NCBI GenBank assembly: GCA_965249275.1
Contig: CBDFLQ010000006.1
Coordinates: forward strand, 672,001 to 736,000
Reading direction: 5' to 3'
Source of the DNA: Dehalococcoidia bacterium
GTDB taxonomy: Bacteria > Chloroflexota > Dehalococcoidia > Plut-88900
DNA length: 64,000 bases
This document shows positions 54,614 through 64,000 of this stretch, piece by piece. A program made the translations under genes and the position numbers. Within the stretch, counting starts at the first letter, position 1; every line of letters begins with the position of its first letter. A model generated the notes under the pieces. The model ran no database searches. It was not told the origin of the DNA and was given only the letters and a program-made list of their open reading frames with translations.

Positions 54614-55295
54614 CTGCCTCCTCCCGAAACTTAGCTTCCCTCGTGGGATAGCATCACATACCTATTAGCTCGCTTTGGGACTCCTTCTCACTAGTGTGAT
54701 ATATTTAGCAATATTCAACGTTCGTTCAATCACAAAAACTGGGACAACTCTTGTCAACTGTTTCCCACTTCCACCCGAATCGGCCTCCTGGAGGATTCAA
54801 CACGCTTAGTAGAAATTCGTGCCGGGGATAAAATAGCGTCAGGAATGGGTTGTTACCGGGATGCCGACGGGGGGGTTAGAAAGCCCACACCCTCCAATAT
54901 ACAGTAGAGTAATTCTCACTGATCCACTCTCAGGGGCAGCGTAGGAAGAAAGGAATAGACACCGGGTCTGCCTAAGAAGTTCATAGACTCCTTTATAGCG
55001 ACGTTTCCGCTACCCGCTTTAAATACATCGTACATGCGAATGGGAGTTACGTCAAGAAGTGAGGATTGTTTCACTATGTATTAAAGCCATGAGAATCTAC
55101 TTGCCAGAAGAGATTTTGATCATCCTTTCCGTGGTTGAATCATGCAGCCTTACAGGTCCAGAAGGCCTTTAGAACGGCTGCCAACACTTCTCGCAACAAT
55201 ACCCCACCCCCCGCTTGGTAACGATATATCAATAAAACAGGGCGGGTGGGCGGGACTCCACTTAATCCCGGGAGTAGGGACGCCACCCCTCCCCC

Positions 55296-55320
55296 GTAGG
55301 GGTGGTTCGCGAACCGCTCT
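55296..55320. repeat. GTAG-type REP (RAYT-associated class)
   Basis: GTAGGGGTGGTTCGCGAACCGCTCT. Confidence 0.65.
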
Positions 55321-55389
55321 GACCTCTGAGTAACCCCACCTCCGTCTCCGCCGCATCGAGCCATGTGCAACAAAAGTGACACGAACCCC

Positions 55390-55419
55390 TTGACCCAATG
55401 CGTACGCCTGTACTATATT
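55390..55419 (+). promoter_or_regulatory. sigma70 promoter with LexA-box-like operator (element 1)
   Basis: TTGACC-caatgc-GTAC-gcct-GTAC-TATATT. Confidence 0.6.
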
Positions 55420-55424
55420 CACCC

Positions 55425-56040
55425 CCGACTAGCTCGTCACACACCTAAACCCTAAGGAGGAACCACAACCCAGGGGGAAGCCCAGCCCCGGCCCCGAGGA
55501 CTCAACGTCTAAGCCCATCCCAAAGGGCGGCCCACACGCCGCCCCTCGGCTCAAGCGAACGCCGCCATCTCCTCATACCAAAGGCCCCGGCTATCCCTTC
55601 CCCCACCCAGGCGATGGAAGGCCCACAGACTATCCTCGGCAGGCCCCGTCCAACGACGCCCCTGCCGATTCAACGCCCCTCATCATCGGGTGCGTTTACC
55701 CCGGCCCATTGCGCGCCGGTTTCCCGGGTAGGTCAACCGACCCCCGGTTTAGCAAGGCCCTCGTGTCCTTGTTTGTCCCGCCGTCCCTGCCATCCGTCTA
55801 CCCGGCGGATGCACCGGGACGCCGGTTCCGAAAGACCGCCTCAGGCGGCATCTTCCACGTCAGCGGTCCGGTCATGTGCCGCTCACGAATTGGGATCTGC
55901 CCCACACAACCCTGACCACAGCCGGCAACATGTGGGGATAATCCAGCCCGGCGCCGACGGCTCGGCAGCAACCCCCGGCCTGGTTTCTAGTCACGGACCT
56001 TCCATCGCCTGCCCCTCCACCAAAGCAAACCGAAACCCCC
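55425..56040 (+). ncRNA. Candidate large structured ncRNA, copy 1 (unclassified)
   Basis: Scaffold 55453-55620 shared with copy 2; 14-bp long-range stem 55608-55621/55998-56011; 3' motif GCAAACCGAAACCCC at 56025-56039. Confidence 0.6.
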
Positions 56041-56102
56041 GGACGACAACCAAATATCGCCCCTCACCCCATGTATAATCCCCTGGCAGGAGGACACCCG
56101 AC

Positions 56103-57212
56103 ATGCGAGAACACCCCCTAGTTGACGTCGACAGCCACGTCCTTGAGCCCATGTCCGTCTGGCAGGACTACCTGGAACCCGACCTCAGGCCCCGTGCCAT
56201 CCGCTGGTCCACCGACGACAACGGGCGCGAGCTAATGCTGATCGACGGCAAGCCCGCGCGCCAGTTCATGCTCCGCAACGGCTGGATGGGCAGCCCCAAG
56301 GTCCCCGGAGGCCGCGCCTTCGAAGACCGGGTGACCACATCCCTCGGCGCAGCCAACGGCGCAGACCGCGTCCAACTGCTCGACAACGAAGGCATCGACA
56401 TCACCCTCCTCTACCCCACCCTCGGCATCCAGTGGGAGCCCGAGTTCGATGACTACAATCTCGCCGCCGCCCACGCCCGAGCCTACAACTCCTGGATCAC
56501 CGACCTCTGTAAACCCCATTCAGACCGCCTGGTTCCCGTAGCCCACGTAGTCGCCTCGGACGTCCAGGAGGGAGCGGCGGAGCTGGAGCGGGCCGCGGGG
56601 CTTGGGGCCCGGGGCGGCATGGTCAGCGGCAGACCCATTAACGGCATCCCCTACGGAGACCCATACTATGACCCCCTCTGGGCGCAGGCCCAGGAGTCCC
56701 GCATACCCCTCGCCCTGCACGTCATGGGCTACCCCAAGCACCTCGGCTACGACATGTACCCCGACACCAGCCCTAAGATCGCCTGGTGGGGCTTCGTCAC
56801 CCTCGGCCTGGAGGTCATCATCGGCCTGACCACCCTCTTCCAGGGCGCCGTCTTCGAACGGTTCCCGGACCTGCGCATCGTCGTCCTGGAGGCGGGGTCG
56901 GGGTGGCTGCCCTACTGGCTCGACAGGATGGACGAATACACGGAGCTCTTCACCTACGCCACGTCGCTATCGATGAAGCCGACCGAATACTTCAAACGAC
57001 AGTGCTGGATCTCCTTCGAACCCAGCGAGGAGATGATGCCCGAGACCATGGATTTCATAGGCGTCGACAAATTCATGTGGGCCGCCGACTACCCCCACAC
57101 CGACTCCGTCGCCGACCCAGTCCGTCTCCTAACAAAAATGCTCGCGCCCCTCTCCCAGGAAGACCGCTGGAAAGTCCTCGGCGACACCGCCGTCGAACTC
57201 TATGGCCTTTAA
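56103..57212 (+). CDS. Amidohydrolase family 2 (paralog of 51960..53099)
   Basis: VDVDSHVLEP, LYPTLG, LEAGSGW, WAADYPHTD; own TATAAT and AGGAGG upstream. Confidence 0.9.
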   Translation: MREHPLVDVDSHVLEPMSVWQDYLEPDLRPRAIRWSTDDNGRELMLIDGKPARQFMLRNGWMGSPKVPGGRAFEDRVTTSLGAANGADRVQLLDNEGIDITLLYPTLGIQWEPEFDDYNLAAAHARAYNSWITDLCKPHSDRLVPVAHVVASDVQEGAAELERAAGLGARGGMVSGRPINGIPYGDPYYDPLWAQAQESRIPLALHVMGYPKHLGYDMYPDTSPKIAWWGFVTLGLEVIIGLTTLFQGAVFERFPDLRIVVLEAGSGWLPYWLDRMDEYTELFTYATSLSMKPTEYFKRQCWISFEPSEEMMPETMDFIGVDKFMWAADYPHTDSVADPVRLLTKMLAPLSQEDRWKVLGDTAVELYGL

Positions 57213-57231
57213 TAATCCTCTCTCCCTCGAC

Positions 57232-57384
57232 GAGACCTTTCTATGAATCGGGATTCATTGCGCCGGGGAACTATATTGCCCTTGCATTGGGGGCGGGGGG
57301 AATCCGCTCATCCTGAGCAGGGTCGAAGGGTCGAGCGGATTCCGGGAGGAGTCCCAGATAGTAGGCAGGTTGTGCAAAGATCCC
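57232..57384. mobile_element. Degenerate MITE of the same family as 43076-43207
   Basis: GAGACCTTT.. and GTTGTGCAAAGATCCC ends; TCGAC/TCGAT flanks within a CTCTCCC/GGAGA REP; internal REP. Confidence 0.6.
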
Positions 57385-57544
57385 TCGATAGGAGAAGCCT
57401 AGGGCCTGCCCCGAGTCCCCCAAGGAAGGGAGGGTGCTCCCCATAACCTTATTGCGAACCATTGCAATAGCAACAGTTCGCATGTATAATCCTCCCAAGG
57501 CTTAAGCGCCTACATAGAAATCGGCGCAGAGAAAGGAAAACCCA

Positions 57545-57955
57545 ATGGTAAAGATCTACAACGTCCACAAAGCTATTGAAAACCTGACCCCCATAGTCAA
57601 CCGGGGCGAGAGTACCCCCGAAGAAGTGGTAGTCGCAGGCTTCGAGATTCTCGGCAGGGGCGATTTCCACGATGCGGCCATCAACCTCGGCACCTTCAAC
57701 GGCGACGCCGGCTGGGAGCGGCACGTCCAGGGTGACGAGATCGTACACATTGTGGCCGGCGAGACGGCAATCCAGATGCTCGTGGACGGCGAGCGCCAAA
57801 CCATTCAGGTAAGCGCGGGCGACCTACTGGTCGTGCCCCAGGGCACATGGCATCGCTTGCAGTCCGAAAAGGGAGTGACCGTCCTGACCGCAACCCCCGA
57901 GGGCCACGAAGACCACGCCTTCGTCGACGACCCCAGAGAACTGTACCCCTGCTAA
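57545..57955 (+). CDS. Cupin domain protein
   Basis: WERHVQGDE and VVPQGTWH motifs. Confidence 0.85.
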   Translation: MVKIYNVHKAIENLTPIVNRGESTPEEVVVAGFEILGRGDFHDAAINLGTFNGDAGWERHVQGDEIVHIVAGETAIQMLVDGERQTIQVSAGDLLVVPQGTWHRLQSEKGVTVLTATPEGHEDHAFVDDPRELYPC

Positions 57956-58115
57956 GCGTGTTGCTAAGCTTATGAATCCGGAGGGTTCATCTCCCTCCTT
58001 TGACTCTAGTTTGGGGTGGAGACGTTATTGTCTCCACCCTTGCACTATCCGACATGCGAGCCCCCAAGCCAGAATCTAACCCCGCCCCATCCCCCCGTGC
58101 TACACTCCCTCCGAC

Positions 58116-58859
58116 ATGCGAGCCCTCGCCCTAGCCTCTATGCTTTTATTCATAACAATACTTTCAGCCTGCGATAATGACACTCCTATCGAATGGGGCT
58201 ACACCGGCCCCGGCGCCCCCGAGAACTGGGCCGCCCTATCCCCCGACTTCGCCGCCTGCGCAAGCGGCAAACAGCAGTCCCCCATCGACATCACAGACTA
58301 CCAAGTTGGCGGACCCGACCCGATCTCCTTCTCATACGCCACCGCCGAGACAACCCTCCGCAACGACGGCAGACAGGTCCACGCCGACTCCGCCCCCGGC
58401 AACACCGCCATGCTAGGAGGTCGGGAATTCACGCTGAAGTCGGCGCACTTTCACTCGCCCTCGGAGCACCTGGTGGACGGCAATAGCTTTGCCGCCGAGC
58501 TTCACATGGTCCACGCCGACTCAGACGGCCGTCTGGCAGTCGTCGGGCTCCTGTTCACCCTCGGTGAGCCCAGCCCCGTAGCACAGTCGATTCTCGACGC
58601 CTCCCCACCCCCCGACGGCACTGGCAACGCCCATATCCCTCTCGCCGGCTCCCTCCCCACCGAGCTCTCCTACTACCGCTACGACGGCTCGAAAACCACT
58701 CCCCCCTGCGATGAGCCCGTCGACTGGCACGTCCTACGACAGCCAATGACCATATCCCAGGAGCAGGTGGAAGGCTTGCTTTCGCTGAGCGGAGGCCCCA
58801 ATAACCGCGCCGTCCAGCCGACTGGCGACCGCGTCATTACAATCGGCGGCGCGCCTTAG
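58116..58859 (+). CDS. Alpha-carbonic anhydrase lipoprotein
   Basis: Lipobox LSAC; WGY.G, QSPIDI, HFHSPSEH, ELHMVH, GSKTTPPC motifs. Confidence 0.92.
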   Translation: MRALALASMLLFITILSACDNDTPIEWGYTGPGAPENWAALSPDFAACASGKQQSPIDITDYQVGGPDPISFSYATAETTLRNDGRQVHADSAPGNTAMLGGREFTLKSAHFHSPSEHLVDGNSFAAELHMVHADSDGRLAVVGLLFTLGEPSPVAQSILDASPPPDGTGNAHIPLAGSLPTELSYYRYDGSKTTPPCDEPVDWHVLRQPMTISQEQVEGLLSLSGGPNNRAVQPTGDRVITIGGAP

Positions 58860-58893
58860 TAAGGGGCTAAGAGAGTGGGGGTTGTACGGCCCC

Positions 58894-60063
58894 TTACGGA
58901 ATCACGCTGCCGGCGATCAGGGTGCTGGCTGCGGCAAACATGCCACCCGGCCCGTGAGCAATCCCGACCTTGGCATCCTTCACCTGCCGCTCTCCCGCCT
59001 CGCCTCGAAGCTGACGCGTCAACTCGATCAGCGTGAAGATGCCGTACATCCCCGAGTGGGTGTAGGAGAGGCCGCCGCCGTTGGTGTTCATCGGGAACTC
59101 GCCGCCCGGCGCAGTCCTCTGCCCCTCGACGAACGGCCCGCTCTCCCCAGGCCCAACGAACCCCAGGTCCTCCAGTGCCAGCATTGGCGTGAAGGAGAAC
59201 GCGTCGTACAGCTCCGCCACGTCAATGTCCGAGTGCTTGACCCCGGCCATATCGAATGCAGCCTTACCGGACTTCCGTGCGCAGTCGGAGGTTGTCATGT
59301 CCCTCATCATGCTCACTCGCTCGTGGGAGACCGCCTCCCCCGTCCCGAGAACGTATACCGGCTTGTGCTTCAGGTCCTTGGCCCGGTCCGCGGTGGTGAG
59401 CACTATCGCTCCTCCGGCGTCGGTAACCAGGCAGCACATAAGGAGGGTGAAGGGCCAGCAAATCATCCGGGCATCCATAACGTCTTGGATTGTGATGGGG
59501 TCTTTCATCCGGGCCATCGGGTGCATCATTGCCCACTTCCGCGTCGCCACCGACACCTCCGCCAGCTGCTCCCGAGTCGTGCCGTACTTGTGCATGTGCC
59601 GGGTGACGGGTATCGAGAAAGTAGTAGTCGGGCCGAACGTCCCGAACGGGTCTTCGAACTGGCCATTGTGGGTTGCGCTTTCATCTGCGAAACCGGGCAG
59701 GCCCATGCGTGAGCGGCCGCTTTCGCCGTGACTGATGACCGCCGTGTTGATCACGCCCGCGCTCAGTGCCAGCATCGCGTGCTCCACGTGCATGATGAAG
59801 GAGCACCCCCCGACAATCGTGCTGTCCGCGTACCGGGGCATGACGCCAAGGTACTCGCACAGGTCGTTCACCGTGGTCTCGGGGGACCCGCCTGCCATGA
59901 ACAGCCCGTCTACGTCTCCCAGGCCCAGGCCCGCATCATCGAGGGCGTTTCGTATCGACTCGGCGTGCAGCGTGAGCACCGACTTATCGGGCAGCTTGCC
60001 CATCTCGTCAGACTCAGACGCTCCGACTATGGCGACCTTACCGCGCAAATCTTTCGGGGCCAT
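58894..60063 (-). CDS. Thiolase-superfamily protein (SCP-x/Ltp2-like)
   Basis: CCLVTDAGGA, ELYDAFS, NTNGGGLSYTH, QLRGEAG.RQV motifs. Confidence 0.88.
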   Translation of the reverse strand: MAPKDLRGKVAIVGASESDEMGKLPDKSVLTLHAESIRNALDDAGLGLGDVDGLFMAGGSPETTVNDLCEYLGVMPRYADSTIVGGCSFIMHVEHAMLALSAGVINTAVISHGESGRSRMGLPGFADESATHNGQFEDPFGTFGPTTTFSIPVTRHMHKYGTTREQLAEVSVATRKWAMMHPMARMKDPITIQDVMDARMICWPFTLLMCCLVTDAGGAIVLTTADRAKDLKHKPVYVLGTGEAVSHERVSMMRDMTTSDCARKSGKAAFDMAGVKHSDIDVAELYDAFSFTPMLALEDLGFVGPGESGPFVEGQRTAPGGEFPMNTNGGGLSYTHSGMYGIFTLIELTRQLRGEAGERQVKDAKVGIAHGPGGMFAAASTLIAGSVIP

Positions 60064-60090
60064 GTCAGTCTCCTTATCACGTCAAAAGGC

Positions 60091-60498
60091 TCATGCGGGC
60101 CGGAACTGTGGCAGCGTCACTTCGTCGGTCACGTCAAGGTAGGCGATCTCGACGGCCATGTCGCAGTGGACCTTCTCCGGGTCGGGCTCGATGCCGATGA
60201 GGTTGCTCATCATCCGAGGCCCCTCTTCCAGCTCGACAACGGCGATGACGTATGGGTCAGACCCGAAGCCGGGGGCCGGCCTGTGGTTTATCACGAACGA
60301 GTACAGCGTCCCCTTCCCGCTGGCCTCGAACCACTCCACGTTTGACGAAAAGCAGTGGGGACAGAAGGGACGAGGATAGAAATACGCCTTACTGCAGTCC
60401 TTGCAGCGCTGTATGAGCAGCTTATGCTCCTTCAGCGCGTCCCAGTAGGGCCTGGTCTCGGGGGTTGGTGAGGGCAGGGGACGATTAGTATCCGCCAA
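60091..60498 (-). CDS. DUF35 Zn-ribbon/OB-fold protein
   Basis: QRCKDC..FCPHC; GTLYSF; VELEEGPRMMSN; GGAGG RBS before TTG at 60498. Confidence 0.9.
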   Translation of the reverse strand: MADTNRPLPSPTPETRPYWDALKEHKLLIQRCKDCSKAYFYPRPFCPHCFSSNVEWFEASGKGTLYSFVINHRPAPGFGSDPYVIAVVELEEGPRMMSNLIGIEPDPEKVHCDMAVEIAYLDVTDEVTLPQFRPA

Positions 60499-60670
60499 TG
60501 GGGCCACCTCCCTGGGCATCCGTTGGGAATTCCGACGCCGCCTATCCTATCGCCCACCCGTTCCCGGTGTCAATCTGATGTACTCGTCCGGTAGGTCAGT
60601 GACACACTGGCCTTTTATTCAGTCCTCCAGAGGCGGATCCGCCCAAGGCGGATGTTCCATCTTCGATTGT

Positions 60671-61295
60671 GGGGTTTCGGTTTGCGTTCTGTCTGTTGGG
60701 TTTTGGGGTGGCGATGAAAGACGCTTGCTGGATTCGGCTCCCTATCTTTAGATAATGCGGGCTAGGAGGCGTCCCGGGAACGTGGGGACGGGGCTCCGCC
60801 GCCGCCTAGACCTGGAAGTATGGTCGGACGTACGGGTCCGTCATCCGTCATAGGCTCCAATGAAGGTTGGCTGCGCTGTCCGCCGCAGGCGGGTGCAGGA
60901 AGGGGAAAGTCCAGGGTCAGTTCCCCTCGCAGGAGTACGGGGTATCCGGTTCGCCGCCTGTATCCAGGAGCCGGGAGTGGCGGACAGTCCAGTTTTATTT
61001 GAGGAAGCGGACGGAGAGCCGAGCGGTCCTCGGCTACGGGCTGCCCCGTTCCGCTCCATAGGACAAGGTTGCTCCGTGAGGAGACTTTTAAGTACGGTCC
61101 AGGGCGTCTTCCATCGCCTGATGGTCAGGGAAGGGATAGCCGGGGCCCTTGGTAGAGGAGATGGCGGCGTTCGCTTGTGCCGTGGGGCGGCATGTGGGCC
61201 GCCCTTTGGGATGGGCTTGGACGTTGAGTCCTCGGGGGCCGGGTGGGCTTCCCTAGTGTTTGGTTCCTCCTTAAGGTGGGTGTCGGGTCTAGACT
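60671..61295 (-). ncRNA. Candidate large structured ncRNA, copy 2 (unclassified)
   Basis: Scaffold 61273-61108 shared with copy 1; 15-bp long-range stem 61118-61104/60724-60710 with one G-U pair; 3' motif at 60685-60671. Confidence 0.6.
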
Positions 61296-61301
61296 GGTCC
61301 A

Positions 61302-61330
61302 ATAATAGAACACATGTCTTATGAAGTCAA
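61302..61330 (-). promoter_or_regulatory. sigma70 promoter with LexA-box-like operator (element 2)
   Basis: TTGACT-tcata-AGAC-atgt-GTTC-TATTAT (17-nt spacer). Confidence 0.65.
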
Positions 61331-61380
61331 GGGGTGGATGTCACACTTTTGGGGGGGCACCGCCCCGGCCCTTCCGGGGA

Positions 61381-61578
61381 ACCCTCACCCCCTTGGTCCC
61401 CCTCTCCCTTAGGGCCTTCAAGGGAGAGGGGGAAAGAAGAATAGAGGCCCGCATACGTGCTAGGCACGTATGCGGGCCTCTAATTCAGTACTGGGGGGAG
61501 GGGGAGGAAAAAACAGAGGCAGAGGCTGGCACTTCTGCGCCCACGTATGCCTCTAATTCAGTACTGAGGGGAGGGGGT
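61381..61578. repeat. REP cluster with perfect 19-bp inverted repeat and ~28-bp direct repeat
   Basis: CCCCCTCTCCCTT..AAGGGAGAGGGGG; TAGAGGCCCGCATACGTGC-TAG-GCACGTATGCGGGCCTCTA (61442-61482); GCCTCTAATTCAGTACTGrGGGGAGGGGG twice. Confidence 0.7.
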
Positions 61579-61661
61579 GATGTCACCCCTTTATGTGAAC
61601 GTGATCAGCTACTATCCTCACCATGACACCGTCATATGTGTCACCCATATTTGTGAATGAC

Positions 61662-61690
61662 TTGACAGATATGGACTAGTATTTTATTCT
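61662..61690 (+). promoter_or_regulatory. sigma70 promoter
   Basis: TTGACA-17 nt-TATTCT upstream of the surface protein gene. Confidence 0.65.
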
Positions 61691-61723
61691 ACGCCGCAGG
61701 ATTTTTTCTAACAAGGTTAGCAC

Positions 61724-64000
61724 ATGCCTCACGTCCTGCGAGTGTCCTACACGTTTGGAATCTTCGCCATCATCGGGATTGCCCTGTTCTTTGCAGTCGG
61801 AGTCTTTGCCGACGACCATAATTCCGTGGACCTATCCCCTTCCGTTTTATGGGAGGGAGAGGAGATCACTCAGCCGGTTGTCGGAGAGTTCCTAACCGCT
61901 GCCCTGGTTGCCGATGACCCGACCGGCATGTCCTGGCAGTGGGCCCGCTCCCAAGATGGAGAGAGCGGCTGGGAGGACATTGAGGCTGCAACCTCCACGA
62001 AGTACATCCCCACCGGGGATGACGTAGGGCGCTACCTCCGGGCAGCCGTCTCATATACCGATGGAGACGGCAACACGCAGAGTGCAGAGGCAATCACCAC
62101 CGATCAGGTGGAGCAAGAGAGGAGTGGTGTCCGCTGCCCATGGTGCGAACCTGGGCCGATATGGACGGCGACACCCGTGCCCACCAATACACCCGTGCCC
62201 ACCAATACACCCGTGCCCACCAATACACCCGTGCCCACCAATACACCCGTGCCCACCAATACACCCGTGCCCACCAATACACCTGTGCCCACCAATACAC
62301 CCGTGCCGACCAATACGCCCGTCCCGACCAATACACCCAGACCCGTCATCCCCACACCCACTCCCCTCAGCAAACCCCCACCCCCAACAGGGGTTCACGC
62401 AGAGGCACAGAGCTATACGTCAATTCTCATCTCTTGGAACAGGGACAGCAGGGGCGGAGTACAGAGTTATGACGTAGACTATGATGACTCCAGCGAGCCC
62501 CGGGACCACCACGGTGGTGGCCCCAACACCTTCAACCTGGTCTCCGGCCTCCGGATTTGCACTCTGTACACATTCACCGTTCAGGCCTTTGGTGACGGGA
62601 CTACCTACGCCGCTCGATGGAGCGACCCGTCCCACCCAGTAGAAGAGTGGACTCTCTGTCCTACCCCCACTCCGACCTCTACCCCTACCCCTACCCCCAC
62701 TCCGACCCCTACCCCTACCCCTACCCCTACCCCTACTCCCACCCCTACCCCTACTCCCACCCCTACCCCTACCCCTACTCCTACGGCCAGGCCTTGTCTG
62801 GTGGACTGCGAGCCACTACATATATGCAATACGAAGGCCGTTATCCCTGGATTTTCCAACAAACCTCACCTTGTGGCAGACTGTGTTGTCCTAAAAAGCA
62901 TCATAGACACCCTGAGGGGTGATGCGGGCGATGCATTGAATTGGAATGGCGAAACACTGTTGCGTGAATGGGAAGGACTCGGCTTTAGCCCCAAAACTGA
63001 CGAGCAGACCAACACGACCTATGATCGTGTTACAGCGTTGTACTTGAACGATAAGAACTTTAGCGGGACAATCCCTGCAAGGCTCGGCTATTTGTCTGCA
63101 CTCAATATCCTGTTTCTAAATGACAATGCTTTAACAGGATTTCTCACAGAATTAATAGTCGGAGATGAAATAGTGACCATTAACCTTGCTAACAATTCGT
63201 TGGAAGGACAAATCCCATCCGAATGGGGATATCGGGACAAACTCCAATCTCTTATCCTCAATGACAATATATTGGATGGAGGAATTCCGAGTTCACTGGC
63301 TAACCTCGAAAATCTTGATTTCCTATATCTCCAAAACAATGAATTAGAAGGTCCAATACCAAGTGCAATAGGAGACATGCCTTCTCTTAGCAGATGGTAT
63401 CTTGCGGGCAATAACCTCAGTCCTTGCTTACCTACATCACTGCTCAACATCGAAGAGAATGACTTTACTTTTCTTGGGCTCATTATCTGCCTTCCGACTC
63501 CTAAGAGAGAAGTACTTTGTCCATTAGCTGGAAGGATTGATCCTTCTGATTATGATGACAACAGCACTATTGTTAATATCGGGCCTGGCTCGTATCAAGT
63601 GCATAGATCGTCCACGTATATGTTCTTTCCTTTACCTGACCTCGGAGGTTCAGAACTTGGCCTGTCTGGGCTAGCTGCTTGTGGTAATAGCGCCGTTGCC
63701 ACTGCATCGGTCACGACTGTCAACACTAGTTTGTATGGCGCTGTTTACCATGGATACAATTCCGGTAGAACTGGATCTTTAGGACACTCCACACCGATTT
63801 TGGGACAAATGTGTACGAATAGTCGGACCTGTCTGTGGCAAAGTGGGTTTCTATTCGCAGGACAGGGTTGGGGTAACCAATTTCAAGTGTACGGTACGCA
63901 CCGTATATCTAGCAGCGGTGGGACTATAAACACATACCGGACAACTGGAGGATATAGTGTCGACGACGTAAGATTTGCTCAACCACCTCCCCATCCTCCG
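61724..64000 (+). CDS. Large secreted/surface protein: signal peptide, Ig-like domain, (TPVPTN)9, FN3, (PT)n, plant-type LRRs (partial, at least 759 aa; not in ORF track)
   Basis: Open from ATG 61724 to the window end: MPHVLRVSYTFGIFAIIG.., SWQWARS..YLRAAVSYTDG, SILISW..VSGLRICTLYTFTVQA..WSDPS, LYLNDKNFSGTIPARLGYLSAL..LYLQNNELEGPIPSAIGDM. Confidence 0.88.
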   Translation, partial: MPHVLRVSYTFGIFAIIGIALFFAVGVFADDHNSVDLSPSVLWEGEEITQPVVGEFLTAALVADDPTGMSWQWARSQDGESGWEDIEAATSTKYIPTGDDVGRYLRAAVSYTDGDGNTQSAEAITTDQVEQERSGVRCPWCEPGPIWTATPVPTNTPVPTNTPVPTNTPVPTNTPVPTNTPVPTNTPVPTNTPVPTNTPVPTNTPRPVIPTPTPLSKPPPPTGVHAEAQSYTSILISWNRDSRGGVQSYDVDYDDSSEPRDHHGGGPNTFNLVSGLRICTLYTFTVQAFGDGTTYAARWSDPSHPVEEWTLCPTPTPTSTPTPTPTPTPTPTPTPTPTPTPTPTPTPTPTPTPTARPCLVDCEPLHICNTKAVIPGFSNKPHLVADCVVLKSIIDTLRGDAGDALNWNGETLLREWEGLGFSPKTDEQTNTTYDRVTALYLNDKNFSGTIPARLGYLSALNILFLNDNALTGFLTELIVGDEIVTINLANNSLEGQIPSEWGYRDKLQSLILNDNILDGGIPSSLANLENLDFLYLQNNELEGPIPSAIGDMPSLSRWYLAGNNLSPCLPTSLLNIEENDFTFLGLIICLPTPKREVLCPLAGRIDPSDYDDNSTIVNIGPGSYQVHRSSTYMFFPLPDLGGSELGLSGLAACGNSAVATASVTTVNTSLYGAVYHGYNSGRTGSLGHSTPILGQMCTNSRTCLWQSGFLFAGQGWGNQFQVYGTHRISSSGGTINTYRTTGGYSVDDVRFAQPPPHPP
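62171..62332 (+). repeat. 18-bp coding tandem repeat x9 (TPVPTN)
   Basis: ACACCCGTGCCCACCAAT units. Confidence 0.95.
62660..62782 (+). repeat. 6-bp coding tandem repeat (Pro-Thr)n
   Basis: CCTACC/CCCACT units. Confidence 0.9.

What the first reader, a model, noticed from the sequence alone, without database searches (positions are those of the whole stretch)
55370..61350. Two copies of a candidate novel ~620-nt structured ncRNA: conserved scaffold plus exchangeable domain
Seen: 55.4-56.0 kb (+) and 61.3-60.7 kb (-) share one architecture. (1) A promoter. (2) A ~170-nt scaffold from TAAGGAGGAACCA to CAGGCGATGGAAG, with about 6 differences over the central ~110 nt. (3) A long-range closing stem. 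(4) An unrelated interior. (5) An identical 3' motif GCAAACCGAAACCCC. Differences preserve pairing: GGGGGAAG/CTTCCCCC versus TAGGGAAG/CTTCCCTG; GGAC/GTCT versus GGAC/GTCC; an invariant GGGCGGC/GCCGCCC stem with a varying loop. G-U pairs occur on the promoter-sense strand, supporting a folded transcript of that polarity. No ORF is conserved, and both downstream genes have their own promoter-like signals, so these look like independent RNAs. They match no RNA class I recognise (not RNase P, tmRNA, 6S, SRP or an intron). Inference: an undescribed multi-copy RNA or ssDNA system, such as a ribozyme, RNP scaffold, or template for an RT or nuclease encoded elsewhere.
Basis: partly seen in the sequence, partly recalled or inferred. 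Interest (0 to 1): 0.92.

Follow-up and report, generated by a model that had tools for sequence, protein, structure and literature searches.

The report
Promoter-homing transposon with transcribed structured body
The two look-alike "RNA genes" are two of 54 copies of a gene-less jumping element that carries its own promoter, is copied into a folded 600-base RNA, and lands exactly five bases in front of host promoters.

Summary
The two copies are 2 of 54 in this 2.9-Mb genome. The CM counts 23-70 copies in each of the 8 other genomes of the genus and none in 116 other genomes of the class.

Each unit has a sigma-70-type promoter, an invariant AAGGAGG, a ~170-nt 5' domain, a 15-17-bp helix closing a 340-530-nt interior (10 classes) and a CA-rich tail. 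Rfam gives no match. Some helices covary. RNA-library contigs cover both bodies.

It is not a free-standing RNA gene. Sixteen copies have sharp ends, TGATCCCGTTCAC... and ...GAACGAGTACA. Ten of the 16 are flanked by an exact 5-bp direct repeat, against 2 of 240 mismatched controls. Relatives repeat this: 8 of 19 against 3 of 342. Seven sites filled in relatives are empty here.

The right end lies 5 bp upstream of a host -35: TTG follows the repeat in 16 of 26 copies.

Verdict: a large, MITE-like, non-autonomous transposon that homes to promoters and has a transcribed, structured body. What the RNA does is unresolved.

The parts
55390..55419 (+). Copy A: own promoter (TTGACC-18-TATATT), preceded by GTGACACGAACCCC
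   Evidence: the same promoter type precedes all 53 full copies
55454..55624 (+). Copy A: 5' domain ('scaffold'). It runs from the invariant AAGGAGG (55454-55460) to the 5' arm of the closing helix (55608-55624).
55625..55994 (+). Copy A: interior domain, class 1 (13 copies in the genome)
55995..56060 (+). Copy A: 3' arm of the closing helix (55995-56011) and C/A-rich tail holding GCAAACCGAAACCCC (56025-56039). No right-end module is recognisable in this copy.
60579..61605 (-). Copy B: complete element from left end to right end, 1027 nt including a nested block
   Evidence: listed there as length 1029, counted from the pattern start
61572..61605 (-). Copy B: left end, TGATCACGTTCACATAAAGGGGTGACATCACCCC
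61331..61571 (-). Copy B: nested block of other small repeats, inserted between the left end and the unit's own -35. IS438 sits at this same place in relatives.
   Evidence: (D16)
61302..61330 (-). Copy B: own promoter (TTGACT-17-TATTAT)
61104..61272 (-). Copy B: 5' domain, from AAGGAGG (61272-61266) to the 5' arm of the closing helix (61120-61104)
60725..61103 (-). Copy B: interior domain, class 2 (11 copies)
60613..60724 (-). Copy B: 3' arm (60724-60710), C/A-rich tail with GCAAACCGAAACCCC (60685-60671), and two ~22-nt GGAACATCCGCC..GGAGGA-type mini-repeats
60579..60612 (-). Copy B: right end, ...GGCCAGTGTGTCACTGACCTACCGGACGAGTACA
60544..60578 (-). Host target. It comprises the 5-mer TCAGA (60578-60574) and the downstream operon's own promoter, TTGACA-18-TAGGAT (60573-60544). 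Both exist already in the empty site of relative G001.

Best explanation
The feature is a family of non-autonomous, MITE-like DNA transposons. They are 0.74-0.9 kb long, encode no protein, and were found only in this genus among the genomes searched.

Shown:
- The element has defined ends. The left end is TGATCCCGTTCAC...GTGACA; the right end is ...TGTCAC...GAACGAGTACA.
- It makes a 5-bp target duplication.
- Its right end lies exactly 5 bp upstream of the -35 hexamer of a host promoter, pointing the same way as that promoter.
- Just inside its left end it carries its own sigma-70-type promoter.
- Its body is represented in RNA libraries.
- The predicted transcript is C-rich. It starts with a Shine-Dalgarno-like AAGGAGG that has no ORF behind it, folds into a ~170-nt 5' domain, has a 15-17-bp long-range helix closing a 340-530-nt multi-hairpin domain, and ends in an unstructured C/A-rich tail.
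- Copies exchange modules: orthologous sites in different species keep the scaffold but carry another interior.
- The spot just upstream of the unit's own -35 collects further insertions.

Inferred:
- An IS481-type (rve/DDE) transposase moves it in trans. The right end resembles the ends of the resident IS481-like IS, which also makes 5-bp duplications.
- The promoter and AAGGAGG are relics of a lost transposase gene's expression signals.
- The folded body is kept because it makes the insertion tolerable. In this reading, transcription from the strong internal promoter is absorbed into a stable structured RNA and ended, probably by Rho, in the C/A-rich tail before it disturbs the host promoter 5 bp further on.

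I put about 0.8 on the transposon reading and about 0.3 on this particular role for the RNA.
For: Copy number and range:
- 54 copies in G000.
- The CM counts 23-70 per genome in 8 of 8 congeners. It finds 0 of 116 other genomes of the class.

Ends:
- 17 left-end and 20 right-end matches in G000. All lie at these units except one solo left end at the groES-groEL promoter and one loose 3-mismatch match.
- 16 copies have both ends, 739-1029 bp apart.

Target duplication:
- 10 of 16 copies have an exact 5-bp repeat and 12 of 16 match at 4 or more of 5 positions. Mismatched control pairs give 2 of 240 exact, and both of those come from one duplicated locus.
- In relatives, 8 of 19 are exact and 13 of 19 match at 4 or more of 5. 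Controls give 3 of 342 and 7 of 342.

Mobility:
- 7 distinct sites filled in relatives are empty in G000 (junctions).
- The copy-B site is empty in G001 and keeps TCAGA plus TTGACA.

Target:
- The hexamer after the duplication is TTGnnn in 16 of 26 copies (TTGAC in 9) and TTTnnn in 4. A -10-like hexamer often follows about 17 nt later.
- In relatives it is TTG in 11 of 19.
- By base composition TTG is expected at about 1.2% of positions (my arithmetic).
- The next gene is co-oriented in 40 of 53 copies, using crude gene calls.

Non-coding:
- No conserved ORF.
- tblastn of four transposases against the bodies gives a best E of 0.04, scattered over strands and frames.

Link to an IS:
- The right end matches the IS481-like IS end at 20 of 34 positions without gaps. 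The 99.9th percentile of 20,000 random 34-mers is 18.
- That IS has TG..CA ends and 5-bp duplications and is named by NCBIfam.

RNA:
- Folding z-scores are -6.0 and -5.4.
- On the CM alignment 89.6% of cells pair, against 83.3% when shuffled (0 of 500 shuffles reach it). The covariation score is 0.181, against 0.095 shuffled and at most 0.102 when slid. The variable hairpin has double-sided changes in 6 of 7 pairs.
- The closing helix is present in 52 of 53 copies, with class-specific complementary extensions.
- RNA-library contigs from 3 studies cover the scaffolds and interiors of both copies.
- No intrinsic terminator lies on the sense strand.
- The sense strand is 38% C and 25% G.

The published description of prokaryotic MITEs fits: TIRs, direct repeats, sigma-70-like promoters, stable stem-loop transcripts, position upstream of genes (PMC10969869, section 2.1 and passages).
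Against: - Only 16 of 53 copies have both ends. Copy A has neither recognisable end and no duplication.
- The two ends are poor inverted repeats. They share 14 of 33 positions without gaps, about the 95th percentile of random. What they share is TG, CGTTC and GTGACA blocks.
- Copy B itself shows no matching duplication (GTAGC against TCAGA). Its left flank is another repeat.
- No autonomous partner with these ends was found in 9 genomes.
- The left end does not resemble the IS481-like IS significantly.
- Many duplications in relatives are orthologues of G000 copies, so the number of independent events is smaller than the counts suggest.
- A plain MITE needs no conserved internal structure. The covariation, and the deep divergence of interior classes that keep one architecture, are not explained by mobility alone.
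- The proposed buffering or termination role has no direct evidence. Contigs give no strand, no ends and no expression level.
- The element is 2-3 times longer than typical MITEs and is GC/C-rich rather than AT-rich.
Confidence: 0.78

Rival explanations
1. The unit is a genuine trans-acting structured RNA, such as a ribozyme or RNP scaffold, and the RNA's function is the reason it exists. The transposon ends are only the vehicle that spreads the RNA gene.
For: - Covariation in the variable hairpin, P1 and the closing helix.
- The blocks AAGGAGG, GAGGACTCAAC and CCATCTCCTC are invariant, or nearly so, in all 56 aligned sequences.
- Interior classes are deeply diverged yet keep one architecture and shared motifs.
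- A second unit type with another 5' domain shares the interior.
- Every copy has its own promoter.
- RNA-library contigs cover the bodies.
- The size, about 600 nt, is typical of large structured RNAs.
Against: - It is confined to one genus.
- It is present or absent at orthologous sites with no sign of dosage control.
- 40-70 diverging copies are not what a single-function RNA needs.
- No candidate partner protein family was found.
- No Rfam relative exists.
- Much of the scaffold signal rests on two major haplotypes.
- Helices 3 and 5 are weak.
Confidence: 0.12
2. The unit is a cis-regulatory leader, riboswitch-like or attenuator-like, that controls the downstream gene. Its copies mark a regulon.
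For: - The next gene is co-oriented in 40 of 53 copies.
- The unit sits directly upstream of host promoters.
- The copy-A site holds a unit in 6 of 6 genomes examined.
- The long structured leader and C/A-rich tail would suit Rho-dependent attenuation.
Against: - Downstream genes are unrelated in function: Lgt, GlnRS, a semialdehyde dehydrogenase, an S58 peptidase, hydrolases and a ChsH2/thiolase pair.
- Each has its own promoter after the unit.
- 13 of 53 copies face a convergent gene.
- Orthologous genes do without the unit in sister species.
- The unit at one locus is swapped for another class or type between species.
Confidence: 0.05
3. The folded strand is itself the transposition intermediate or guide. 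It could be an RNA copied by a reverse transcriptase, a single-stranded DNA handled by an HUH enzyme, or a bridge or guide RNA that picks the target.
For: - The structure is strand-specific, with G-U pairs on the sense strand.
- There is a long inverted repeat.
- The target choice is precise.
Against: - The promoter, which lies upstream of the transcript, is part of the moved unit. An RNA copy would lose it.
- 5-bp duplications and TG..CA ends are the mark of DDE transposition.
- RVT_1, TnpB, IS110 and Y1 enzymes are not found in G000.
- The only constant part of the target is TTGAC, too short for an RNA guide.
Confidence: 0.04

Closest known systems
Prokaryotic MITEs that carry promoters, e.g. 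the Correia element of Neisseria (PMC10969869, section 2.1 and passages read)
   Same: Both are non-coding and multi-copy, with terminal inverted repeats and a flanking direct repeat. Both carry a sigma-70-like promoter, lie mostly just upstream of genes, and give transcripts with stable stem-loops.
   Different: This element is 740-900 bp, whereas MITEs are typically under 500 bp. It is GC- and C-rich, not AT-rich. Its inverted repeats are poor. It has a ~600-nt body with covarying helices and about 10 interior classes. It inserts at a fixed 5-bp distance from the -35, in one orientation. From recall, not from a call: Correia elements are about 100-155 bp with a TA duplication.
IS481-family insertion sequences: the resident copies here are 'c329' (190 bits, below the 224 cut-off) and 'b401' (231 bits)
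   Same: TG...CA termini and a 5-bp target duplication. The element's right end matches the c329 end at 20 of 34 positions. Both show strong site preference.
   Different: The element has no transposase gene. Its left end is not significantly similar to the IS. The resident IS targets a REP-like hairpin (GGAAT/ATTCC), not promoters.
'Putative mobile promoters' / promoter reuse in prokaryotes (PMC3575422; only the search listing and the start of the abstract were seen)
   Same: Near-identical promoter regions stand upstream of unrelated genes within one genome.
   Different: Here the vehicle is identified (ends and target duplication). The promoter does not replace the host promoter; it is placed 0.7 kb upstream of it.
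Target-selecting transposons such as Tn7 (named in a PMC10969869 passage as targeting attTn7)
   Same: Orientation-specific insertion at a fixed distance from a recognised site, with a 5-bp duplication. The 5-bp figure for Tn7 is from recall.
   Different: The target here is a class of sites (-35 hexamers of many promoters), not one chromosomal site. No Tns-like genes were looked for or seen.
Large structured bacterial RNAs (OLE, GOLLD, ROOL, HEARO; names from recall)
   Same: Length of about 600 nt and many helices. From recall, HEARO is also multi-copy and tied to a mobile element.
   Different: No Rfam 15 family, these included, matches at the gathering or E-value thresholds. The range is one genus.

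Membership tests
Prokaryotic MITE (features as listed in PMC10969869, section 2.1) | Flanking direct repeats made by duplication of the target | tested here: met
   Exact 5-bp repeats in 10 of 16 copies against 2 of 240 controls. In relatives, 8 of 19 against 3 of 342.
Prokaryotic MITE | Terminal inverted repeats of about 4-30 bp | tested here: inconclusive
   The ends are sharp. Both begin TG and carry CGTTC at positions 7-11 and GTGACA at 21/22-26/27. Ungapped identity is only 14 of 33, about the 95th percentile of random.
Prokaryotic MITE | No transposase gene (non-autonomous) | tested here: met
   No conserved ORF. No transposase similarity in the bodies.
Prokaryotic MITE | Total length typically under 500 bp | tested here: not met
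   739-902 bp for 15 complete copies, and 1029 bp for copy B with its nested block.
Prokaryotic MITE | AT-rich, inserted in AT-rich intergenic DNA | tested here: not met
   The sense strand is 38% C, 25% G, 22% A and 15% T. Scaffold GC is 0.60-0.67.
Prokaryotic MITE | Transcripts with stable stem-loop structure | tested here: met
   Fold z-scores of -6.0 and -5.4. RNA-library contigs cover the bodies. The strand of those contigs is not known.
Prokaryotic MITE | A related IS that can mobilise it in trans | tested here: inconclusive
   The right end matches the IS481-like IS end at 20 of 34 positions, but the left end is not significant. No partner with the same ends was found in 9 genomes.
Any described RNA family (Rfam 15) | Match to a covariance model | tested here: not met
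   No hit at gathering score over the window. Only chance-level hairpin hits appear at E-value thresholds over the region and over 20 diverse units.
Guide or template RNAs of mobile elements (IS110 bridge RNA, TnpB/IscB omega RNA, retron, group II intron) | The cognate enzyme is encoded in the genome | tested here: not met
   PF01548, PF07282, PF00078 and PF01797 each gave 0 matches in G000, which is 87% complete. Controls gave matches.
Riboswitch / cis-regulatory leader | Association with a functionally coherent set of downstream genes, conserved with those genes | tested here: not met
   10 downstream proteins fall in unrelated Pfam families. Orthologous genes lack the unit in sister species.

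The most novel reading that the evidence does not exclude
This genus may harbour a guild of mobile elements that read promoters. The element studied here, a shorter repeat and an rve-type IS ('IS438') have unrelated termini, yet all insert exactly 5 bp upstream of a TTGAC -35 hexamer, in one orientation. That points to target capture through the promoter itself or through RNA polymerase/sigma bound to it. On this reading the element's conserved, covarying ~600-nt RNA is an active part of the system. It might couple its own transcription to targeting or to transposase control, or insulate the host promoter. It would not be a passive passenger.
Probability: 0.15. Interest if true: 0.85.

Novelty: new variant of a known kind. 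Interest (0 to 1): 0.55.

Why it matters
The finding shows that a 'novel ncRNA' with good covariation can be the body of a transposon, so ends and target duplications should be checked before an RNA class is named.

The element is unusual among bacterial non-autonomous transposons in three ways:
- It is large.
- It keeps a folded, transcribed body in many diverged subfamilies.
- It sits at a fixed 5-bp distance from host -35 hexamers.

If the targeting is mechanistic, it would be a bacterial counterpart of the eukaryotic elements that integrate next to RNA polymerase III start sites (my comparison, from recall). It would also be a natural tool for placing cargo next to promoters.

The element also explains the mosaic 'promoter cassettes' and long intergenic regions of this genome. 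It occupies about 1.3% of the genome (54 copies of about 0.7 kb in 2.9 Mb; my arithmetic).

Tried and rejected
Known RNA:
- Three Rfam searches found nothing beyond hairpin-like chance hits.
- ARAGORN found nothing.

Structure methods that led nowhere:
- RNAalifold on the plain MAFFT alignment gave a poor consensus of 19 pairs at -8.5 kcal/mol, because the variable helices were misaligned.
- Mutual information was dominated by linkage between two major scaffold haplotypes.
- I therefore used a hand-set structure and a CM alignment. Such an alignment leans towards the structure given.

Trans targets: interiors matched only other units, the second unit type and small repeats.

Decayed CDS: tblastn of four transposases gave a best E of 0.04, scattered.

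Partner enzymes RT, TnpB, IS110 and Y1 were absent in G000.

Autonomous partner: paired ends in 9 genomes are 699-995 bp apart. The one exception is 2075 bp apart and holds a nested IS438.

Distant homologues: the only hit outside the genus is a 26-bit partial match (leader plus one hairpin) in G009. I do not count it.

RNA runs:
- All four runs laid are contigs, so they give no strand, ends or level.
- Bins 55000-55447, 58136-58583 and 61272-61700 had next to no cover in the four runs.
- Contigs break at repeats, so the gap between unit and downstream gene says nothing.
- One laid run carries the label 'sponge metagenome'. I draw no habitat claim from it.

Papers:
- (SAR202, sponge, noncoding RNA, repeat) listed nothing on such an element.
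- One search listed 8 papers, none describing an IS or MITE that targets -35 hexamers. Two searches do not show that this is not in print.
- Supplements were not opened.

Full report
**Observation**

The repeat finder reports inverted arms 55486-55574 and 61155-61243 (89 nt, 93%), with two adjoining arms.

Both copies have a promoter matching 10 of 12 consensus positions. Both have a long-range stem and the motif GCAAACCGAAACCCC. Rfam 15 gives no hit at gathering scores over the window. Over 55300-61450 it gives only chance-level hairpin hits at E up to 10.

**Copy number and range**

The 186-nt scaffold is not present twice but 54 times in the 2.9-Mb genome, at 69-100% identity. One copy is cut by a contig end, which leaves 53 full copies.

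All 53 are preceded by the same promoter type: GTGACAY, about 3 nt, CCCC, TTGAC, a 17-18-nt spacer, and TAYTAT-like. All 53 have the 5' arm GCGATGG and a 3' arm TCCATCGCC 340-532 nt further on.

BLAST finds the scaffold in 8 of 8 other genomes of the genus. It finds it in 0 of 3 other genera of the family and 0 of 29 other families sampled. A covariance model counts 54 in G000 and 23-70 in each congener.

Outside the genus the model gives one 26-bit partial match in a fragmented genome. It gives nothing in 116 other genomes of the class. The order holds only these 12 genomes.

**Anatomy**

The interiors fall into 10 classes of 13, 11, 10, 6, 4, 3, 2, 2, 1 and 1 copies. Class representatives align weakly but share motifs.

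Classes 5, 6, 7 and 9 are also homologous to the interior of a second unit type. That type has the same promoter but another 5' domain, in about 11 copies.

The closing helix is 15-17 bp in 52 of 53 copies. Beyond the shared GGCGATGGAAG/CTTCCATCGCC it carries class-specific complementary extensions: GGTCC/GGACC, GACGC/GCGTC and GAAGCCC/GGGCCTC.

No ORF is conserved. The sense strand is 38% C and 15% T.

**Structure**

Both copies fold better than shuffles, with z-scores of -6.0 and -5.4 on the sense strand and -4.2 on the antisense strand of copy A.

On the CM alignment of 73 scaffolds (63 distinct rows), 89.6% of cells pair, against 83.3% in shuffles (0 of 500 reach it). The covariation score is 0.181, against 0.095 shuffled and at most 0.102 for slid partners.

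The support is uneven:
- The variable hairpin has double-sided changes in 6 of 7 pairs, and P1 in 3 of 7.
- The GGAC/GUCY hairpin has 23 of 63 A.C cells.
- Helix 5 varies on one side only.

The alignment was fitted to my structure, and the sequences are related. These figures therefore overstate the case.

**Expression**

Twelve metatranscriptome runs from 3 studies hold small shares of the stretch. In the four runs laid, contigs cover the scaffolds and interiors of both copies. Examples are records 9 and 25-27 on copy A, and 15, 16, 21-24 and 30-32 on copy B. These are contigs, so they give no strand, end or level.

**What it is**

Three observations led away from an RNA gene.

1. Downstream genes are unrelated in function, and each has its own promoter.

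2. Orthologous sites differ between species.
   - Copy B is kept in G002 and G003. It has another interior in G005 and is missing in G001, where the intergenic region is about 220 nt.
   - The copy-A site holds a unit in all six genomes examined, but of different classes. In G005 it holds the second unit type.
   - Seven distinct sites filled in relatives are empty in G000.

3. The units have ends.
   - A left-end motif (17 of 19 matches) and a right-end motif (20 of 20 matches) occur only at these units. The exceptions are a solo left end at the groES-groEL promoter and one loose match.
   - In the 16 copies with both ends, homology stops sharply at TGATCCCGTTCAC... and ...GAACGAGTACA.
   - The flanking 5-mers are identical in 10 of 16 copies and match at 4 or more of 5 positions in 12 of 16. 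Mismatched pairs give 2 of 240, both from one duplicated locus.
   - In 19 complete copies fetched from four relatives, the figures are 8 of 19 and 13 of 19, against 3 of 342 and 7 of 342. Several of these are orthologues of G000 copies. Four have flanks not seen in G000.

This is the signature of DDE-type transposition of a non-autonomous element.

**Target**

In the 26 copies where the right-end pattern matched, the hexamer directly after the 5-bp duplication is TTGnnn in 16 (TTGAC in 9) and TTTnnn in 4. A -10-like hexamer often follows about 17 nt later. In relatives TTG follows in 11 of 19.

The duplicated 5-mer lies between the element and the TTGAC. The G001 empty site already has TCAGA plus TTGACA. 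The -35 is therefore part of the target, not of the element. Two other filled-versus-empty comparisons also resume homology at the host -35.

This accounts for the co-orientation with the next gene (40 of 53, crude gene calls).

**Candidate mobiliser**

G000 has 22 rve-domain genes in three IS types:
- An IS481-like IS of about 1.06 kb (190 bits, below the 224 cut-off), with TG..CA ends and 5-bp duplications inside a REP-like hairpin.
- An IS481-family IS (231 bits).
- A third type with two copies.

The element's right end matches the first IS's end at 20 of 34 positions without gaps. This is above the 99.9th percentile of random 34-mers. The left end does not match significantly.

No longer version of the element with a transposase between these ends was found in 9 genomes. 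The single 2075-bp case holds a nested IS ('IS438').

In 6 of 6 copies fetched, IS438 sits between ...ACCCC and TTGAC of a unit's own promoter, with a 5-bp duplication. This is the same relation to a -35 hexamer, although its termini are different. Copy B has a 240-nt block of other repeats at that very spot.

**The two copies in the window**

Copy B is a complete element, 60579-61605 on the minus strand. It has both ends, a nested block, and its right end 5 bp from the TTGACA of the ChsH2-like/thiolase operon promoter. Its flanking 5-mers do not match, and its left flank is another repeat shared with a second copy.

Copy A has the promoter, scaffold, class-1 interior and tail, but no recognisable left or right end. 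It is either an old, eroded copy or a product of recombination between copies.

**What remains open**

A plain MITE does not need covarying internal helices, invariant blocks or ten diverged interior classes with one architecture. I commit, with low confidence, to the following reading:
- The promoter and AAGGAGG are relics of a lost transposase gene's signals.
- The folded body with its C/A-rich tail makes the insertion tolerable by absorbing and ending transcription before the host promoter.

The rival readings are not excluded. These are that the RNA is the point of the element, or that it takes part in targeting.

The body is also not a decayed copy of the four transposases tested.

**Comparison with the literature**

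The MITE review (PMC10969869; section 2.1 and passages read) lists these features: TIRs, direct repeats, length typically under 500 bp, AT-richness, stable stem-loop transcripts, sigma-70-like promoters in several MITEs, and Correia elements mostly just upstream of genes.

This element meets the direct-repeat, non-coding, promoter and structured-transcript features. It fails on size and composition, and its inverted repeats are poor.

'Promoter reuse in prokaryotes' (PMC3575422; listing and start of abstract only) describes groups of near-identical promoters. This element is one concrete vehicle for that.

I found no description of -35-directed insertion in the two searches made. That does not show it is not in print.

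Noticed in passing
G000 C5:156945, C5:477201, C5:735580(-), C5:272098(-), C6:57505, C6:128785, C6:141657, C6:946494, C6:841637(-), C7:453337, C7:724391. Also L062:3575-4300 (G005, at the copy-A site).: A second unit type in about 11 copies. It has the same promoter but another 5' domain (CAGGCCCGAC..GTCGGCCCTAAT, then AAGGAGTCCCATGAGTCGCA, that is an SD plus ATG). Its interior is homologous to classes 5, 6, 7 and 9. One copy carries the AGCGATGGAAGGTCC arm.
   Followed up: partly
L101:240-1566 (G002); L102-L105 (G005); L106 (G001): 'IS438' is a ~1.3-kb rve-type IS with a 435-aa open frame and only a weak IS481/IS3 match. In 6 of 6 copies fetched it sits between ..GTGACAYNAACCCC and the TTGAC of a unit's own promoter, with a 5-bp duplication (ACCCC). 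It was not found in G000.
   Followed up: partly
G000 C6:928700-928830 (-): The groES-groEL promoter carries a solo copy of the element's left end (TGATCCCGTTCACATAGAGGGGTGACATCAACCCC). It is fused to a different -35/-10 and followed by a CIRCE-like inverted repeat (TTAGCACTC-N9-GAGTGCTAA).
   Followed up: no
G000, e.g. C7:510030-511090, C7:521100-522160, C6:524500-525560 (about 11 copies): An IS481-like IS of ~1.06 kb with ends TGTAAGTGTTAGG.. and ..CTGACATCTACA. It is always inserted in a REP-like hairpin (GTCATTCC...GGAATGAC) with a 5-bp duplication, GGAAT or ATTCC. Several copies lie right next to the units studied here.
   Followed up: partly
G000, e.g. C5:115700-117100, C7:459950-461300 (8 copies): An IS481-family IS (401-aa frame) whose copies are 99% identical to one another. 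It is inserted in another hairpin repeat (CCCTCTCCC-TCGATG-GGAGAGGG CTAGGGTG^AGGGTGA). That repeat also flanks the left side of several units.
   Followed up: no
window 60625-60665 (-); G000 C6:42140-42165, C6:148280-148300, C7:805080-805125: A ~22-nt mini-repeat, GGAACRTCCGCCTMTGGAGGA, which forms a hairpin with an SD-like GGAGGA. It occurs in 1-3 tandem copies in the tails of many units and is inserted into the loop of a scaffold hairpin in three copies.
   Followed up: no
L064:1330-1480 (G001), L066 reverse complement 1440-1500 (G008), L062:4330-4460 (G005); G000 C5:232030-232150: Arrays of CAATCAA-type heptamers, up to about 10 in a row. They lie just upstream of the amidohydrolase gene's promoter in relatives but not at that site in G000. 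They look like a binding-site array.
   Followed up: no
window 62135-62374 and 62630-62810 (+): An 18-nt tandem repeat (ACACCCGTGCCCACCAAT, about 10 copies) and a 12-nt CCTACCCCTACC-type repeat lie inside the long ORF that starts at 61724. They would encode Pro/Thr-rich linkers.
   Followed up: no
window 61442-61482 and 61476-61577: A 19-bp perfect hairpin followed by a T-run (terminator-like, minus strand), and a duplicated 29-nt GCCTCTAATTCAGTACTG.. repeat. Both lie inside the block nested in copy B. Similar hairpin repeats recur next to other units.
   Followed up: no
L062:3850-4130 (G005); G000 C7:348800-348998 (-): An ~88-nt tandem repeat (GGGCCTCCGCGGCATTGCGCCGCGTAAGAT..CTCCACCTGGCGTGGAAGCG, about 4 copies) lies inside a unit of the second type. 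A related repeat follows another promoter of the same type in G000.
   Followed up: no
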